A program made the translations under genes and the position numbers. Shown here piece after piece: positions 1,755-38,363 of a stretch of 64,000 nt of DNA. The stretch lies in the NCBI GenBank assembly GCA_024228115.1, contig JAAETT010000234.1, positions 26,220 to 90,219 of the forward strand, given 5' to 3'. The notes under the pieces are model-generated. The model was not told where the DNA came from. It worked only from the letters and a program-made list of their open reading frames with translations, and ran no database searches. This stretch comes from a bacterium. GTDB lineage: Bacteria; Myxococcota_A; UBA9160; UBA6930. Positions within the stretch are counted from its first letter, which is position 1; each line of letters starts with the position of its first letter.

Positions 1755-2387
1755 CTACGGAGCACTGCGCATTCCGCGCAGGAAGATCTCGACCATGTCG
1801 CGGAAGACCTGGTCGAGGGGGCGATCACGCAAGCGGCGGCGTGGCGCGGCCAACTCGGTCTGGATGACACCGTTGGCCATCGTCCACAGGATGTTGGCCA
1901 CCTCCCAGCTATCACAGGGCGCGAACTCGCCGCTCTCGACACCGCGATCGATCGCGGCGGCGAGAATCTTCAGACAACTATGCCAGAGACGGGTGATCTC
2001 CTGCACCAGGGCATCCGGGAGGTCGCCGATCACTTCCTGGTTGTCGAGGGCCCAGAAGATCCAGAAGTTCTCCCGGTTGCGCGTCCAATGATCGACGTAG
2101 AACCGACCGAGTTCGCGAATCTGGTCCGCCGCCGAGCCAGGCGTCCGAGCAGCCTCTCCGAGCCGCTCCTGGAAGATCGCACCACCGTCCGCGAGCAGAG
2201 CGACGTAGAGATCGCCCTTGTTCTCGAAGTAGCGGTAGAGCGTCCCCTTCGCGACACCGGCGATCTGCGCGACCTCGTCGAGGTTCGCGTTCATGAAGCC
2301 GTCTCGGAAGAAGACACCCCGTGCAGCCTCGAGGATTCGTCCCCGCTGCAGGGTGCGTCGGTCTCCCCCGGACGCCGGATCAGACAC
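1755..2387 (-). CDS. TetR/AcrR family transcriptional regulator
   Basis: HTH region [45 protein letters not shown]. The start was trimmed to GTG 2387 (VSDPASGG...), which overlaps the cysK stop. The upstream part of ORF 1755..2507 overlaps cysK out of frame. Confidence 0.85.
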
Positions 2388-3339
2388 CGACGTCGTCACT
2401 GCCCTCGTATCGATAGGGCTCGAACAACTTGGTGTTGAGATACCGCTCGCCGAAGCTCGGAATGATGACCACGACCAGCTTGCCCTGGTTGTCGGGCTTC
2501 CGGCCATACTCGAGGGCCGCGCTTACGGCCGCACCGGACGAGATTCCGCAGAGGATGCCTTCCTCGGAGGCCAGGCGACGAGCCATGTCGAAGGCAGCGT
2601 CGGCGCTGACCTTGATCACGGAATCGATCAGGGATTGATCGAGAACGTCGGGGATGAAACCGGCGCCAATGCCTTGGATCGGATGGGGGCCCGGCGAGCC
2701 ACCGGAAAGCACGGGGCTCGCCTCGGGCTCGATGGCAATCGCCTCGAAGGAGGCTTTCTTCTCCTTCAGCGCCTGGGCGATCCCCGTGATCGTGCCGCCC
2801 GTGCCCACGCCGGAAATCAAGGCATCGACTTGCCCGTCCGTATCCTCCCAGATCTCCAGCGCCGTCGTGTTGCGGTGGACCTCCGGGTTGGCCGGATTCA
2901 TGAACTGCTGGGGCATGAATCCGTCGGGAATCTCGGCGACGAGCTGGTTCGCCTTCTCCACGGCGCCGCGCATCCCCTTGGCGCCCTCGGTCAGGACGAG
3001 CTTTGCGCCGAATGCGCGAAGAACGACGCGCCGCTCCAGGCTCATCGTCTCCGGCATCACGAGAACACAGGAGTAGCCCTTCACCGCGGCCACGAACGCC
3101 AATGCGATCCCGGTGTTGCCGCTGGTGGGCTCGACGATCACGGTCTTGCCCGGCGTGATCGCGCCGTCGCGTTCGGCGGCCTCGATCATCGCGAGCCCGA
3201 TTCGGTCCTTCACGCTCGCTGCGGGGTTCTGGCCTTCGAGCTTGCAGACGATCTGGGCATCGACGCCCGCCGATACCGTATTCAGACGCACGAGCGGCGT
3301 ACGTCCGATGAGTTCGGTGATGTTGTTGGCGATGTTCAT
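2380..3339 (-). CDS. cysK: cysteine synthase A (O-acetylserine sulfhydrylase)
   Basis: [20 protein letters not shown] start and the PLP-lysine motif [14 protein letters not shown] 3339 is preceded by GGAAGGA. The 90 aa upstream of it in the track ORF are Arg/Pro-rich junk. Confidence 0.9.
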
Positions 3340-34724: not shown

Positions 34725-36086
34725 GTGGACGAGCGTCAGAGCCAGGAGCGGCTCGCGAAACGGCTGACTGCGATGGGACTCGAGGTCGAGATCCTGGCCG
34801 GTGGCCGCTGTCTGCGCGGCGTCTTGTCGCTCGCTCACGAACCGTTCTTGACGCCCTCTGGGCCCCTCACGGTCTCCAGCATCGAGTTTGCCAGTGTGGG
34901 CCCCCAGCGCATCAAATGCCTGAGGCCCGCTTCCTTCTTCCAGCTGCCCATCATCTCGATCGCCGGCTGCGGAGAAGCCTCCGAGCTGGAGGGACGCATC
35001 CGCGCGGCCTGGATCGATCACATGGCGGGCCAGCGGAACCTGCGAAGCCAACTCGTGGAATCGCAGCTCGCCCATGAGAGCGAATGGGACGAGGCCGGCC
35101 TGGCACTCTCGGTCGGCCAGGATGATCCCGGCGCCCGGGCCCGTTGGATCGAGGGACGAACGTTCGCCCTCCCCTCGCCGGGCCCACTTGCCGGCCATGC
35201 CCTGGCGAGAGCCTCCGACCGGGTCATCGACCTACCGGCCGAGGCTCGCTCTGCTTCGGAGATCGAGATCGCCATCACCTCATGCCTGGATGAACTCACG
35301 CGACAGCTCGACCAACGTGAAGCCCGACGCCGGCGCCGCAGCGCCCTGGAGGGTGATGAAAGCCCGGCCGAGCCTCTGCACCCGGTCTTCCGGGGTCGCG
35401 ACCGCCAGATCCTGCTGGTCGGTCCGCAGCTCGCCGAGGATGCGGCGCTCGACGCAGCACTGCGCCAACGGGGCTTTCGCACGACCCAGGCTCGCGGTGC
35501 GGACAGCGCGCGCCGGGCGTTCGACGAGAGCTCATTCGAAGTGGTCGTGACCGACGCGGTTCTGGACCGGGCCGAAGGCCTCGAGCTGATTCCGACCCTG
35601 GCCGACGTACCTGGCATCGGGCAGCTGCCGGTCGTCCTGATCGACGACCGGGCCCGCGAAGGCCGAAGGGAGGCCGCTCGGGCCCTCGGCGCCGCCGGAT
35701 ACCTCGTGCGCCCACTCGACCCCCAGCGCCTGGCCGCGGGCCTGGAGCGCATGCTGGTCGAACGCCCGCGCCGCCGCTTCGACCGCTTCGCACGCAAACT
35801 GGCTGTGGCGTGGACAGACGGCTGCGACGGGTTCACGACCGTCGTCGGCCGGCTCGGAATGTTCGTCTCGACGGGGCGACAGAGCTCCCCGGGTGCCCTC
35901 GAGAGCGTGGAACTCGCGCTCCCCGAAACGGGGGAGCGCGTTTCCATGGACGTCGAAACCCTCTACCGCGTGGATCCCCGCGGCGGACGCGATCCCGGCA
36001 TCGGCGTGCGCATCCGCGCCTTCTCGGACGATCACGAGAGCCTATGGATCGACTATCTGACGGCCCTCGAAGGTGCGACTGGCTAG
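34725..36086 (+). CDS. three-part protein: unknown N-terminal domain, degenerate receiver (REC-like) domain, PilZ-like C-terminal domain
   Basis: REC-like region ILLVGPQLAEDAALDAALRQRGFRTTQARGADSARRAFDESSFEVVVTDAVLD...LPVVLIDD...GAAGYLVRP. The acidic pair is replaced by GPQ and the conserved Lys by Arg. The PilZ-like region has RRRFDRFAR and then ...VVGRLGMFVST ... GIGVRIRAF, so the D/NxSxxG motif is not conserved. Confidence 0.5.
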   Translation: MDERQSQERLAKRLTAMGLEVEILAGGRCLRGVLSLAHEPFLTPSGPLTVSSIEFASVGPQRIKCLRPASFFQLPIISIAGCGEASELEGRIRAAWIDHMAGQRNLRSQLVESQLAHESEWDEAGLALSVGQDDPGARARWIEGRTFALPSPGPLAGHALARASDRVIDLPAEARSASEIEIAITSCLDELTRQLDQREARRRRRSALEGDESPAEPLHPVFRGRDRQILLVGPQLAEDAALDAALRQRGFRTTQARGADSARRAFDESSFEVVVTDAVLDRAEGLELIPTLADVPGIGQLPVVLIDDRAREGRREAARALGAAGYLVRPLDPQRLAAGLERMLVERPRRRFDRFARKLAVAWTDGCDGFTTVVGRLGMFVSTGRQSSPGALESVELALPETGERVSMDVETLYRVDPRGGRDPGIGVRIRAFSDDHESLWIDYLTALEGATG

Positions 36087-36093
36087 CGCTGGC

Positions 36094-36306
36094 TCAGCCC
36101 AGCTTTGCGCGGGCCTTGTCGATATCGCTGTCCATGATCGTCTTGCGCTTGTCGGCGATCGCAGAGGCGTGAGCCTCACGCGCAAGCCGCGCAAGAAAAT
36201 CTTCCGTGGCTTCGACCGCTCGGTCGATCGCCGATCCAGAAACCCTGAGCCCGTCGCCATGTTTGGTGATGAGCCGCTTCACGACCGCGTTCGGCAAGTC
36301 TGCCAT
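36094..36306 (-). CDS. bacterial histone-fold protein (archaeal HMf-type singlet histone homologue)
   Basis: 70 aa: MADLPNAVVKRLITKHGDGLRVSGSAIDRAVEATEDFLARLAREAHASAIADKRKTIMDSDIDKARAKLG. It aligns along its full length with archaeal HMfB as remembered (LP.A...R.I, RVS, a long central helix, then RKTI...DI). A strong AGGAGG sits 5 nt before the ATG. The gene has its own 87-nt upstream intergenic region with a TTGACA hexamer at 36368..36363. Confidence 0.8.
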   Translation of the reverse strand: MADLPNAVVKRLITKHGDGLRVSGSAIDRAVEATEDFLARLAREAHASAIADKRKTIMDSDIDKARAKLG

Positions 36307-36393
36307 TCGTACCTCCTGCGTGGTGTCTCGCTGGTGTGAAACAAACAGCGGCCGAGGGGGATTGTCAAACCCGTCGATTGTAGTGTTCTACCC

Positions 36394-37605
36394 TCAGCTA
36401 TTTCGAGCCGCTTCCTCAGCCGCTCTCACCACCTCGCCAAGAGACCGGTTCTCGCGACGGGCCGCACGCTTGCAATCGTCGTACTCGGCGGACACTTCGA
36501 GTTGGCCGTCGGGAGCGGTGACGAACTTCACGCGGATCTTCCCGAAATCGGTGTCCACTCGGCGCACTTCACGCGGCAGGATCAGGCGATCCGCTTCCAG
36601 GCAGCGGACGCCGAGACTGCCCGTCACGGAGAGCAAGCGCGTTGCCATCGGAATGCGATCGGCCGGGGTCGTGAGCACGCGCAGGAGAAAACCCGGCCGA
36701 TTCTTCTTCGTCTGCACATGCTGGAGCGAGACGTCGAGCGCACCCGCCTCGAGCAGCTGCTCCATCACGTGATCGAAATGCTCGGGAACCAGATCATCCA
36801 GATTCGCCTCGAGACAGACGACCCGATCCGCGCCACCGCCGCTCTCCCGCCCGATCACCACACGCAACACATTCGGGAGAGGACCCGGCCGATCGTTCCC
36901 GGCGCCGTGGCCAATCGCCTCGATGGTCATCGCCGGGAGCCCGGTGAACTCGTCGGCGAGTGTGCGCAAGATCGCCGCGCCGGTGGGGGTGATCGTCTCC
37001 CAGTTCACGTGGGCGGGCACGGTCGGCACCCCACGCAACAACTCGAACGTGGCCGGTGCCGGAAGAGGAAGTCGGCCGTGCTCGGTTTCTACGACACCTT
37101 CGCCCAACGCCACCGGCCCTACCGTGACACGCTCGATCCCCATCGCGTTCACCGCAATGGCAGCACCCGTGATATCGACGATGGCGTCCACGGCGCCCAC
37201 CTCGTGGAAGTGGACCTTCTCGATCGGAATGCCATGCACGCGTGCCTCCGCCCGGGCCAGGACGGCGAAGATCGCCTGGGCCTGGTCACGCACCTGCGCG
37301 TCGAGCTTTGCAGCGTCGAGCAGACGACGAATCGTATCGAAGTGACGGTGGGGATGGTGATGACCATGCCGGGGCTTCGGCACCTTCACATCCACATAGG
37401 GCGCGGCCAGGGCGCCTCGCTTCGCGCGGCGGACGACCAGGCGATGATCCACACCGAGGCCGCCGAGCGCCTCCGTGAGCTTTCGACGCGGCAAGCCCGC
37501 GTCGAGCATCGCACCCAGGAACATATTGCCAGCAGCGCCAGAGAACGGATCCAGATGGAGAACGCGACGCCCCCCCGCGGGCGCCTTCGGCTTGGGTTTC
37601 GCCAC
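36394..37605 (-). CDS. larC: nickel-pincer cofactor nickel insertion protein LarC (DUF111)
   Basis: VLHLDPFSGAAGNMFLGAMLDAGLP, a His-rich PRHGHHHPHRH stretch, and HFHEVGAVDAIVDITG. Confidence 0.85.
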   Translation of the reverse strand: MAKPKPKAPAGGRRVLHLDPFSGAAGNMFLGAMLDAGLPRRKLTEALGGLGVDHRLVVRRAKRGALAAPYVDVKVPKPRHGHHHPHRHFDTIRRLLDAAKLDAQVRDQAQAIFAVLARAEARVHGIPIEKVHFHEVGAVDAIVDITGAAIAVNAMGIERVTVGPVALGEGVVETEHGRLPLPAPATFELLRGVPTVPAHVNWETITPTGAAILRTLADEFTGLPAMTIEAIGHGAGNDRPGPLPNVLRVVIGRESGGGADRVVCLEANLDDLVPEHFDHVMEQLLEAGALDVSLQHVQTKKNRPGFLLRVLTTPADRIPMATRLLSVTGSLGVRCLEADRLILPREVRRVDTDFGKIRVKFVTAPDGQLEVSAEYDDCKRAARRENRSLGEVVRAAEEAARNS

Positions 37606-37607
37606 GC

Positions 37608-38363
37608 TCAGAGCCTGTTGATGAGGGTCGCCACGGTCGCAGCGCCAAAACCGTTGTCGATGTTCACCACTGTCACATTCGATGCGCAGCTGTTCAACAT
37701 GGCGAGTAGCGCCGCGAGGCCACCGAACGAAGCGCCGTAACCGACGCTGGTGGGCACGGCGATCACCGGCTTGTCGATCAGCCCTCCGACCACCGAGGCC
37801 AGGGCTCCCTCCATGCCAGCGACTGCGATCACCACACGAGCGCTCCGAAGCAATCGGCTCTCGCCTAACAGACGGTGCAGGCCGGCAACGCCGACGTCAG
37901 CGAGTAGCTCCACCTTGTTCCCGAAGCGCCTGGCCACGCCGGCTGCTTCTCGCGCGACCGGGAGATCCGACGTTCCCGCGCAGACCACGGCGATCGTTCC
38001 CTTGCCACGAATCTCGACCTCGGCCGGCCCGAACCAGAGCAACCGAGAGGCCTCGTCGTATTCTCCGCCAGGCAGTAGAGCCAGGATTTGCTGGGCAGCC
38101 GCCGGCTCGATCCGCGTCGCGAGCGGCGATTGGCCCGCCTCCACCAACGCCCGCGCGATCTCCGCGATCTGTCCCGGCTCCTTGCCGAGCCCGAAGATCA
38201 CCTCGGGGAGACCCTGACGAAGCGCCCGGTGGACATCGACGCGAGCCGCCCCCGATGGCGTCTCGATCGCAGGCGGCTGGGCGAGCGCTTCGAGAGCCTC
38301 GTCCGTGTCCAGCTCCCCGCTCCGTACCGCTTCGAGCAAAGCCCTTGCTTGTTCGCGTTCCAC
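37608..38363 (-). CDS. larB: nickel-pincer cofactor biosynthesis protein LarB (PurE-like carboxylase/hydrolase)
   Basis: [45 protein letters not shown] and [11 protein letters not shown] motifs. GTG start. Confidence 0.85.

What the first reader, a model, noticed from the sequence alone, without database searches (positions are those of the whole stretch)
36094..36306. Stand-alone histone-fold (HMf-like) protein in a bacterial genome
The 70-aa ORF MADLPNAVVKRLITKHGDGLRVSGSAIDRAVEATEDFLARLAREAHASAIADKRKTIMDSDIDKARAKLG has the helix1-loop-long helix2-loop-helix3 spacing of a singlet histone. It shares the diagnostic positions of archaeal HMfB, quoted from memory as [69 protein letters not shown]. 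The shared positions are LP.A...R.I at the start, RVS in loop 1, and RKTI(3x)DI at loop 2/helix 3. Histone-fold nucleoid proteins are rare in bacteria, and only a few (Bdellovibrio, Leptospira) have been studied experimentally. Those showed DNA-binding modes different from archaeal wrapping. In this protein the residue aligned with the HMfB tetramerisation His is Ala (..SAIADKRKT vs ..LARHAGRKT), so higher-order assembly may also differ. The gene is monocistronic. It has a near-consensus AGGAGG RBS and a TTGACA hexamer upstream, which would fit an abundant protein. The rest of the window is ordinary Gram-negative housekeeping DNA, so this looks like a resident chromatin component rather than cargo of a mobile element.
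Basis: partly seen in the sequence, partly recalled or inferred. Interest (0 to 1): 0.85.

Follow-up and report, generated by a model that had tools for sequence, protein, structure and literature searches.

The report
Full-length histone in uncultured Myxococcota
The 70-codon gene is a real, strongly conserved bacterial histone. It keeps the full-length fold and DNA-contact residues of archaeal and eukaryotic histones, unlike the two shortened bacterial histones studied so far, but it lacks the residues those histones use to stack into nucleosome-like particles.

Summary

- **Gene and fold.** The minus-strand ORF 36094..36306 encodes a 70-aa protein. It passes Pfam's curated cut-offs for Histone and CBFD_NFYB_HMF. 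Its AlphaFold2 model (pLDDT 87) has α2 of 28 aa and α3 of 11 aa, and superposes best on eukaryotic H3 and NF-YB.
- **Residency.** The gene is resident and vertically inherited. At least 92 species-level MAGs of Myxococcota, including UBA9160 and UBA6930, carry it. In about 77 of 80 loci it sits in the order larB-larC-histone, followed by a convergent response-regulator gene and groEL. It has no plasmid or phage copies.
- **Constraint and promoter.** dN/dS is 0.015-0.12. A TTGACA-N18-TAnnnT promoter is conserved in 58 of 80 orthologous upstream regions.
- **How it differs from HBb and HLp.** It is not α3-truncated. It keeps R10, the sprocket R19, R52, K53, T54 and D59 in 81 of 81 orthologs. It aligns to the H3 fold without gaps and shows no BLASTP similarity to HBb.
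- **Likely mode of action.** The four-helix-bundle positions His49 and Leu62 are never His or a large hydrophobic residue. The most likely mode is therefore a DNA-bending homodimer, not a hypernucleosome.
- **Prior knowledge.** One member is already listed, undiscussed, in a 2023 survey table.
- **Open points.** Abundance and oligomeric state are untested, and codon usage does not support high expression.

The parts
36094..36306 (-). Histone-fold CDS, 70 aa plus stop. Predicted helices are α1 at residues 6-16, α2 at 24-51 and α3 at 59-69.
   Evidence: ORF and translation. Pfam Histone and CBFD_NFYB_HMF score above their gathering cut-offs. AF2 model has pLDDT 87. Identical to NCBI MCP5057235.1. 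dN/dS is 0.015-0.12.
36312..36317 (-). Shine-Dalgarno AGGAGG, 5 nt upstream of the ATG.
   Evidence: Read directly from the sequence. GGAGG-type motifs sit at the same distance in nearly all 80 orthologous loci.
36363..36368 (-). -35 hexamer TTGACA of the histone gene's own promoter, 62 nt upstream of the ATG.
   Evidence: Sequence. The positions are invariant in an alignment of 9 divergent orthologous upstream regions. TTGAC[AG]-N16-19-TAnnnT occurs in 58 of 80 orthologous upstream regions, against a shuffle mean of 0.18 (max 2) and 0.5% of random 120-nt segments.
36339..36344 (-). Probable -10 element TTGTTT, with an 18-nt spacer. It is a weakened version of the TAGGAT, TACGAT and TAGTTT elements of orthologues.
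   Evidence: It is positionally homologous to the conserved TAnnnT element in orthologues. It was not called by the consensus scan because position 2 is T. Inference.

Best explanation
**What it is.** The gene encodes a resident singlet histone of an uncultured Myxococcota lineage (GTDB Myxococcota_A, class UBA9160, proposed name 'Vahlivitia'). It is transcribed from its own conserved sigma-70-type promoter.

**Shown here**
- It is a genuine histone-fold protein with full-length α2 (28 aa) and α3 (11 aa).
- It is basic (pI 9.3).
- Every residue that archaeal and eukaryotic nucleosomal histones use to hold DNA is invariant: R11=HMfB R10, the 'sprocket' R21=R19, K55/T56=K53/T54, and the R54-D61 clamp=R52-D59.

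**Inferred**
- It forms a handshake homodimer.
- The dimer binds about 30 bp of DNA non-specifically on the canonical L1L2-α1α1-L2L1 ridge and bends it, so the protein acts as a nucleoid-associated protein.
- The four-helix-bundle positions that join HMf or H3 dimers into tetramers (L46, H49, L62) are S/A/K-type here, as in Bdellovibrio Bd0055 (S45, A48, I61). It therefore most likely stays dimeric on DNA and does not build HMf-type tetramers or hypernucleosomes.
- In effect it is an archaeal-type histone dimer used in an HU-like way.
For: **Fold**
- Pfam hits.
- AF2 helices at 6-16, 24-51 and 59-69, pLDDT 87.
- Foldseek best matches are H3, CENP-A and NF-YB, with TM 0.8-0.89 and rmsd 1.2-2.5 Å.
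- The family profile hits H3 at E about 5e-6 with no gaps over residues 9-67.

**DNA-contact residues**
- P5, R11, R21, R54, K55, T56 and D61 are present in 81 of 81 orthologues.
- pI is 9.3.

**No canonical tetramer interface**
- The H49 position is A/G/E/S/Q and never His. The L62 position is K/A/R/Q/T.
- Hocher et al. 2023 (PMC10627809, read) report that histones lacking His49 fail to form stable tetramers. They also report that Bd0055 gains wrapping only after the A48H/S45F/I61L mutations.

**Functional importance**
- dN/dS is 0.015-0.12. Median identity is 74%, against 59% for LarC, 69% for LarB and 85% for GroEL.

**Expression signals**
- Conserved promoter in 58 of 80 loci.
- Conserved strong RBS.

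**Residency**
- Synteny is conserved in about 77 of 80 species and on four further contigs.
- No plasmid or phage copies.
Against: - Dimer formation, DNA binding and the absence of higher oligomers are all inferences from residue patterns.
- The C-terminal end of α2 (E44-A45-x-A47-S48-A49-x-A51-D52) is highly conserved among close relatives. That would be unexpected for a surface with no partner and could indicate a non-canonical dimer-dimer or partner interface.
- Some orthologues carry L, I or F at the L46 position (18 of 81).
- Codon usage does not resemble that of GroEL, GroES and RpoD: CAI is 0.52, in the 9th percentile of 43 window genes. The window's -10 element is weak. High abundance is therefore not supported by all indicators.
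- Whether these genomes also encode HU, IHF or Dps could not be determined. None is in the window or the syntenic loci, which is uninformative.
Confidence: 0.6

Rival explanations
1. It is a wrapping histone. Dimers associate through a non-canonical α2C/α3 interface, using the small-residue patch A47-S48-A49-x-A51 plus D52, K64 and K68, to form tetramers or longer superhelical polymers that wrap DNA. This would make it the first nucleosomal-type histone assembly in a bacterium.
For: - α2 and α3 are full length, so the geometry needed for a four-helix bundle exists. This is unlike HBb, whose α3 is one turn (PMC10627809).
- The α2 C-terminus is strongly conserved among close relatives.
- The sprocket arginine and all wrapping-type DNA contacts are conserved.
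- D61, the partner of His49 in HMfB, is invariant.
- HLp shows that bacterial histones can tetramerise and wrap about 60 bp by a different interface (PMC12701072).
Against: - His49 is never present, and the L62 position is charged or polar in most members.
- Published mutagenesis and natural variants lacking His49 do not form stable tetramers (PMC10627809).
- Schwab et al. 2024 report nucleosomal, tetramer-forming histones only in archaea.
Confidence: 0.2
2. It is a gene-specific or partner-dependent regulator, NF-YB/HAP3-like, rather than a global nucleoid protein. It could act on the adjacent lar genes or the groESL region, or as a subunit that needs another protein for specificity.
For: - PGAP names relatives 'NFYB/HAP3 family transcription factor subunit'.
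- The best structural superpositions by TM-score and rmsd are NF-YB chains, at TM 0.88-0.89 and rmsd 1.2-1.4 Å.
- Linkage to larB-larC is extremely conserved.
- The codon adaptation score is low.
Against: - No NF-YC-like or second histone-fold gene is in the window. The one weak hit lies inside a TetR gene and is chance.
- The protein ends right after α3, with no αC or extra domain.
- The whole region, including groEL and the response-regulator gene, is syntenic, so linkage to lar is not specific.
- In 28 loci an α/β-hydrolase gene separates larC from the histone, yet the histone keeps its own promoter.
- The conserved DNA contacts are the non-specific backbone and minor-groove contacts of nucleosomal histones.
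Confidence: 0.12
3. It is a histone-fold protein with a non-DNA role, such as a protein-protein scaffold like some TAF, CENP or DUF1931-type folds.
For: - Schwab et al. and Hocher et al. both caution that not all prokaryotic histone-fold proteins need be genome organisers.
- There is a weak Pfam similarity to CENP-T_C and DUF1931, both below their cut-offs.
Against: - Net basic charge.
- All canonical DNA-binding residues are invariant, including the RKT L2 motif, the RD clamp and the sprocket Arg.
- There are no extra domains or transmembrane segments.
Confidence: 0.05

Closest known systems
Archaeal nucleosomal histones (HMfB and HMfA of Methanothermus fervidus; PDB 1A7W, 5T5K)
   Same: - Similar length (70 aa against 69 aa), with no tails.
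- 35% identity over 63 aa with a single 1-residue indel.
- Full-length α2 and α3.
- Shares P4, R10, the sprocket R19, R52, K53, T54 and D59.
- Basic pI (9.3 against 9.6).
   Different: - Lacks the four-helix-bundle residues: L46 is S, H49 is A, L62 is K.
- Scores 40.4 bits against NCBIfam archaea_histone, below its 50-bit cut-off.
- Bacterial host.
- L1 is one residue longer, as in H3.
Eukaryotic histone H3 fold (and NF-YB)
   Same: - Best sequence matches in the PDB for both the single sequence and the family profile: E=7e-4 and 5e-6, ungapped from residues 9-67 to H3 72-130.
- Best Foldseek matches.
- Shared AI.AKR.TIM..DI..AR motif.
   Different: - No N-terminal tail or αN helix.
- H113, C110, L126 and I130 of the H3-H3' interface are replaced by A, S, K and K (direct reading of the alignment).
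- There is no H4-like partner gene.
- The margin over archaeal histones is small: Pfam 44.4 against 40.0 bits.
- H3 hits in the representative library are inflated by concatenated multi-H3 gene models.
Bdellovibrio bacteriovorus HBb/Bd0055 ('bacterial dimer' histones; PDB 8FVX, 8CMP)
   Same: - A bacterial stand-alone singlet with the RKT L2 motif and the Arg-Asp clamp.
- Ser and Ala at the positions equivalent to HMfB L46 and H49.
- Predicted to act as a dimer.
   Different: - No BLASTP alignment at E<=100.
- HBb has a 4-residue shorter α2 and a one-turn α3, whereas the window protein has 28-aa and 11-aa helices.
- HBb lacks the sprocket Arg (it has N22).
- HBb has an S9-K10 motif that is absent here.
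- The window protein is 6 aa longer.
Leptospira HLp / face-to-face (FtF) histones (PDB 9QT0-2)
   Same: A bacterial histone that is essential or abundant in its host. It shows that bacterial histones can wrap DNA (PMC12701072).
   Different: FtF histones are α3-truncated and tetramerise face-to-face via R48 and N52 (PMC11390915). The window protein is not α3-truncated. HLp does not appear among its top sequence or structure matches.
Archaeal His49-lacking histone variants
   Same: A full-length HMf-type fold that retains DNA binding but lacks the tetramerisation histidine. [quoted passage not shown]
   Different: In archaea these variants coexist with tetramer-competent paralogues (my own knowledge, not checked here). 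No second histone-fold gene was found in the window, but whole genomes could not be scanned, so sole-histone status is an inference.

Membership tests
Histone-fold superfamily (Pfam PF00125 Histone / PF00808 CBFD_NFYB_HMF) | Profile match above the curated gathering score | tested here: met
   PF00125 scores 44.4 bits against a 26.4 cut-off. PF00808 scores 40.0 bits against a 21.4 cut-off.
Histone-fold superfamily (Pfam PF00125 Histone / PF00808 CBFD_NFYB_HMF) | Helix-loop-long helix-loop-helix architecture | tested here: met
   The AF2 model has helices at 6-16, 24-51 and 59-69 with pLDDT 87. Foldseek TM is 0.8-0.89 to H3, NF-YB and CENP-T.
Histone-fold superfamily (Pfam PF00125 Histone / PF00808 CBFD_NFYB_HMF) | Handshake dimerisation | not testable with these tools
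There is no experimental data.
Archaeal nucleosomal (HMf-type) histones | Full-length α2 (about 28-29 aa) and α3 of about 10 aa | tested here: met
   α2 spans 24-51 (28 aa) and α3 spans 59-69 (11 aa). Only a 1-residue indel separates it from HMfB.
Archaeal nucleosomal (HMf-type) histones | DNA-binding residues R10, R19 (sprocket), K53, T54 and the R52-D59 clamp | tested here: met
   All are present and invariant in 81 of 81 orthologues.
Archaeal nucleosomal (HMf-type) histones | Four-helix-bundle tetramerisation residues (L46, H49, L62) | tested here: not met
   They are S48, A51 and K64 in the window protein. The H49 position is never His and the L62 position is never a large hydrophobic residue across the family.
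Archaeal nucleosomal (HMf-type) histones | NCBIfam archaea_histone (NF043032) curated cut-off | tested here: not met
   40.4 bits against a cut-off of 50.
Archaeal nucleosomal (HMf-type) histones | Forms the (hyper)nucleosomal tetramer (Schwab et al. definition) | not testable with these tools
   This needs AlphaFold-Multimer or biophysics.
α3-truncated bacterial histones: 'bacterial dimer' (HBb-type) | α3 of only 3-4 aa and α2 shorter by 4-5 aa | tested here: not met
   Helix lengths from the model. The MAFFT alignment shows that HBb, not the window protein, carries the 4-residue α2 deletion and lacks α3. The definition is from PMC11390915.
α3-truncated bacterial histones: 'bacterial dimer' (HBb-type) | Sequence clustering with HBb/Bd0055 | tested here: not met
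   BLASTP finds no alignment at E<=100. HBb is absent from the top 60 PDB hits. The family profile scores HBb at 17.8 bits against 25.9 for H3.
α3-truncated bacterial histones: 'bacterial dimer' (HBb-type) | Absence of the tetramerisation histidine | tested here: met
   A51 aligns with HBb A48 and HMfB H49.
Face-to-face (FtF, HLp/HTkC-type) histones | α3-truncated fold with a face-to-face tetramer via conserved R48 and N52 | tested here: not met
   The fold is not α3-truncated. The tetramer itself was not testable, and I had no HLp sequence for a residue-level alignment.
NF-YB/HAP3 transcription-factor subunits | Obligate heterodimer with an NF-YC-type histone-fold partner, plus an αC helix | tested here: inconclusive
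   There is no second histone-fold gene in the 64-kb window and the protein ends after α3. The rest of the genome could not be searched.

The most novel reading that the evidence does not exclude
This family may be the principal chromatin protein of a whole class of Myxococcota_A and a third mechanistic type of bacterial histone: a full-length, H3/HMf-like fold that wraps or polymerises on DNA through a non-canonical α2C/α3 interface. That would overturn the view that nucleosomal-type histones are exclusive to archaea and eukaryotes, and it would place an H3-like histone in a lineage related to bacteria that some models of eukaryote origins invoke.
Probability: 0.12. Interest if true: 0.9.

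Novelty: new variant of a known kind. Interest (0 to 1): 0.58.

Why it matters
**The current picture.** The two bacterial histones studied in detail, HBb and HLp, are both 'α3-truncated'.
- Hocher et al. 2023 call the shorter α2 helix diagnostic of bacterial singlet histones.
- Schwab et al. [quoted passage not shown]

**How this family differs.**
- It is highly conserved, spans a class-level lineage, and has its own promoter.
- It keeps the complete archaeal/eukaryotic fold and DNA-contact set.
- It lacks only the tetramerisation residues.

**What it offers.**
- It is a natural test of what a full-length histone dimer does to DNA when it cannot form the four-helix bundle.
- It is a third reference point for how histones were acquired or retained in bacteria.
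- The protein is small and easy to make recombinantly, so the question is directly testable even though the hosts are uncultured.

**What tempers the interest.**
- The family is already annotated as histone-like in NCBI and IMG.
- One member sits, undiscussed, in the Hocher et al. 2023 supplementary table.
- Its function is entirely inferred.

Tried and rejected
1. **Multimer prediction.** No dimer or tetramer model was possible.
2. **Second histone-fold gene in the window.** tblastn gave a weak hit (E=0.001) at 1926-2030 (-). It lies inside a TetR-family regulator ORF (1755..2507) and was rejected as chance.
3. **HU, IHF, Dps and Fis survey.** There were no hits in the window or in 0.8 Mb of fetched loci. 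This is uninformative, because the loci all cover the same syntenic region.
4. **Mapping the family onto Schwab et al.'s 17 categories.**
   - The supplement lists UniProt accessions only, and no UniProt accession was retrievable for family members.
   - Whether they classed it as 'Undefined', 'Bacterial dimer' or not at all is unknown.
5. **Specific affinity to eukaryotic H3.**
   - H3 is marginally the best match.
   - Pfam Histone and CBFD_NFYB_HMF scores are nearly tied.
   - The H3 entries in the representative search are concatenated multi-H3 gene models that inflate E-values.
   - I therefore do not claim a eukaryotic origin.
6. **Mobile-element cargo.** Rejected. There is no plasmid or phage match, and only one distant (35% identity) viral relative.
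7. **Intrinsic terminator.** None was found. The convergent gene's stop codon lies 7 nt from the histone's stop.
8. **Operon with larC.** Not supported as the only mode of expression, because the promoter is conserved even where larC ends 24-60 nt upstream or where another gene intervenes.

Full report
**1. The observation**

My recalled HBb/Bd0055 sequence is identical to 8FVX. Both can therefore serve as references.
- The shared positions are real: LP.A...R.I, RVS and RKTI-xxx-DI. HMfB His49 aligns with Ala51.
- AGGAGG sits at 36317..36312, 5 nt before the ATG. TTGACA sits at 36368..36363.

**2. It is a histone fold**

- Pfam Histone (PF00125) scores 44.4 bits against a 26.4 cut-off, E=2.4e-11. 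CBFD_NFYB_HMF (PF00808) scores 40.0 bits against 21.4, E=4.8e-10.
- NCBIfam archaea_histone matches end to end, but at 40.4 bits it is below its 50-bit cut-off.
- An AF2 model built on 63 family members has mean pLDDT 87 and helices at 6-16, 24-51 and 59-69.
- Foldseek against the PDB returns only histone folds. H3 and CENP-A match at TM about 0.8 and 34% identity. NF-YB matches at TM 0.88-0.89 and rmsd 1.2-1.4 Å. CENP-T also appears.
- By sequence, the best solved relatives are eukaryotic H3. The single sequence gives E=7e-4 and the family profile gives E=5e-6, with an ungapped match of residues 9-67 to H3 72-130. Archaeal histones follow closely.

**3. It is a real, constrained, resident gene**

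- The protein is 100% identical to NCBI MCP5057235.1 from a MAG. It has 417 homologues in the 5.8-billion-protein collection. The 120 listed hits are mostly 70 aa long and at least 76% identical.
- Sources name these proteins 'histone H3/H4', 'NFYB/HAP3 family transcription factor subunit' or 'histone-like protein [Myxococcota bacterium]'.
- In the exhaustive 1.84-billion representative library only 61 clusters match at E<=1e-3, so the family is compact. The H3 entries in that list are concatenated multi-H3 gene models.
- A scan of one genome per species found 92 species-level genomes with the gene. All are uncultured MAGs labelled Myxococcota or Deltaproteobacteria, and they include UBA9160 and UBA6930.
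- A 2026 preprint places UBA9160 and UBA6930 in GTDB Myxococcota_A and proposes the class name 'Vahlivitia'. It does not mention histones.
- The gene order larB-larC-histone, followed by a convergent 453-aa receiver-domain gene and groEL, is conserved. LarC is found in 77 of 80 loci, LarB in 73, GroEL in 57 and the receiver-domain gene in 52. The same order occurs on four further contigs that carry the identical protein.
- Pfam confirms the neighbours as LarC (Ni_insertion), LarB (AIRC), Lnt, GroEL and a receiver-domain protein. RpoD, FolE, LexA and GroES lie just beyond; I assigned these by reading the ORF translations, without a profile scan.
- dN/dS against close orthologues is 0.015-0.07, with a median of 0.12 over 65 non-saturated comparisons.
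- Median protein identity across species is 74%, against 59% for LarC, 69% for LarB, 40% for the receiver-domain protein and 85% for GroEL.
- There is no plasmid or phage match, and only one distant (35% identity) viral relative.
- The 'resident, not cargo' reading is therefore supported.

**4. Expression signals**

- An alignment of divergent orthologous upstream regions shows invariant TTG.C positions in otherwise diverged intergenic DNA.
- Across 80 loci, TTGAC[AG]-N16-19-TAnnnT occurs in 58 upstream regions, 51 of them with an 18-nt spacer, at a median of 60 nt from the ATG. Shuffles give a mean of 0.18 (max 2), and random 120-nt segments of the same loci match 0.5% of the time.
- The promoter persists where larC ends only 24-60 nt upstream. 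It also persists in the 28 loci where an α/β-hydrolase gene intervenes.
- The gene therefore has its own promoter. The window's version is TTGACA-N18-TTGTTT, with a weakened -10 element.
- GGAGG-type ribosome-binding sites are conserved.
- No intrinsic terminator is predicted. The convergent gene's stop codon is 7 nt away.
- Against the 'abundant protein' idea, codon usage does not resemble GroEL, GroES and RpoD. CAI is 0.52, in the 9th percentile of 43 putative window genes, and GC3 is 0.73 against 0.86-0.88 for GroEL and RpoD. With only 70 codons this is a weak test.

**5. What kind of histone it is**

- Hocher et al. [quoted passage not shown] They add that the sprocket arginine R19 is not conserved and that Bd0055's α3 is one turn.
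- Schwab et al. 2024 define an α3-truncated family, with α3 of 3-4 aa and α2 shorter by 4-5 aa. It contains both studied bacterial types (bacterial-dimer HBb and face-to-face HLp). [quoted passage not shown]
- The window protein does not fit that picture:
  - α2 is 28 aa and α3 is 11 aa.
  - It aligns to the H3 fold with no gap and to HMfB with one 1-residue indel, whereas HBb needs a 4-residue α2 deletion and lacks α3.
  - BLASTP finds 35% identity to HMfB but no alignment at all to HBb.
  - R11 (=R10), the sprocket R21 (=R19), R54, K55, T56 and D61 are present in 81 of 81 orthologues.
- It does not meet the nucleosomal definition either:
  - The four-helix-bundle positions L46, H49 and L62 are S48, A51 and K64.
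  - Across 81 orthologues and 13 divergent relatives the H49 position is never His, and the L62 position is K/A/R/Q/T-type.
  - S and A at the first two positions are the same residues as in Bd0055 (S45, A48).
  - Hocher et al. showed that Bd0055 gains DNA wrapping only after A48H/S45F/I61L. They also note that HMfB mutants and natural archaeal histones lacking His49 do not form stable tetramers.

**6. Mechanism**

- **Shown:** a full-length histone fold, basic charge (pI 9.3), an invariant canonical DNA-contact set, absence of the canonical tetramer residues, strong purifying selection, its own conserved promoter, and vertical inheritance.
- **Inferred:** the protein forms a homodimer that binds about 30 bp non-specifically across the L1L2-α1α1-L2L1 ridge and bends it. 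It acts as a nucleoid-associated protein and does not build HMf-type tetramers or hypernucleosomes.
- **Main rival:** oligomerisation through a non-canonical α2C/α3 interface. This rival is motivated by the very high conservation of E44-A45-x-A47-S48-A49-x-A51-D52 among close relatives and by the full-length α3.
- **Lesser rivals:** an NF-YB-like specific regulator, or a non-DNA role.
- I could not test oligomerisation. I also could not test whether these genomes lack HU or IHF.

**7. Novelty**

- The family is not unknown to databases.
- One member is listed in Supplementary Table 1 of Hocher et al. 2023: Deltaproteobacteria bacterium UBA6930, DKAI01000097.1-5, 70 aa, which is my locus L010. 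The main text of that paper never mentions Myxococc*.
- The only entry in that supplement named Myxococc* (UBA727, 63 aa) is a different, short HBb-like protein.
- I found no paper in the searchable library that describes a full-length singlet histone family in Myxococcota_A.
- I could not determine how Schwab et al. categorised it. 'Undefined' is plausible.
- I therefore rate it a new variant of a known kind (bacterial histones), catalogued but uncharacterised, and of moderate-to-good interest.

Noticed in passing
window 34725..36086 (+): A 453-aa protein whose only Pfam hit is a receiver domain in its middle (residues 240-338). It is convergent with the histone gene, and the two stop codons are only 7 nt apart. 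The gene is found in 52 of 80 related loci but evolves fast (median 40% identity). Its N- and C-terminal regions are unannotated.
   Followed up: partly
window 36394..38363 (-): A larB-larC pair (AIR-carboxylase-like LarB and nickel-insertion LarC) lies immediately upstream of the histone on the same strand in about 77 of 80 species. No larA or larE was noticed adjacent in the window. Whether the linkage has any functional meaning is unknown.
   Followed up: partly
L019 4929..5936 (and about 27 other loci with a larC-histone gap of at least 700 nt): In about a third of related genomes an α/β-hydrolase-like gene (GLSMGG motif) is inserted between larC and the histone. The histone still keeps its TTGACA-N18-TAnnnT promoter.
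   Followed up: partly
L085 4674..5303 (+) (IMGVR_UViG_2860317346_000001, 175-kb viral contig): A 209-aa viral protein with an acidic N-terminal region and a C-terminal histone fold carrying PNAAVKRI and KKRKTIMDRDIE motifs. It is 35% identical to the window protein and is the only relative found in viral contigs.
   Followed up: partly
P0163 (500 aa) and P0164 (155 aa) from the representative search: Relatives of the family occur fused to other sequence. One is a 500-aa protein with this histone fold at its extreme C-terminus. The other is a 155-aa tandem doublet of two related histone folds.
   Followed up: no
L029 and L078 (both from MAG SOY_38_metabat_69): One MAG carries two copies of the whole syntenic block, with histone identity of 74% and 65% to the window protein. 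This looks like a mixed bin of two related populations rather than true paralogues.
   Followed up: no
window 1755..2507 (-): A TetR-family regulator contains a 35-aa stretch ([15 protein letters not shown]...[13 protein letters not shown]) that is 37% identical to the histone N-terminus (tblastn E=0.001). I judged it a chance similarity.
   Followed up: yes
window 36094..36306 (-): The histone gene is compositionally slightly atypical. Its GC is 0.615 against 0.658 for the window, and its GC3 is 0.73 against 0.77-0.88 for neighbours. Its codon adaptation to the GroEL/GroES/RpoD reference is low, which is odd for a gene with such a strong conserved promoter and RBS.
   Followed up: partly
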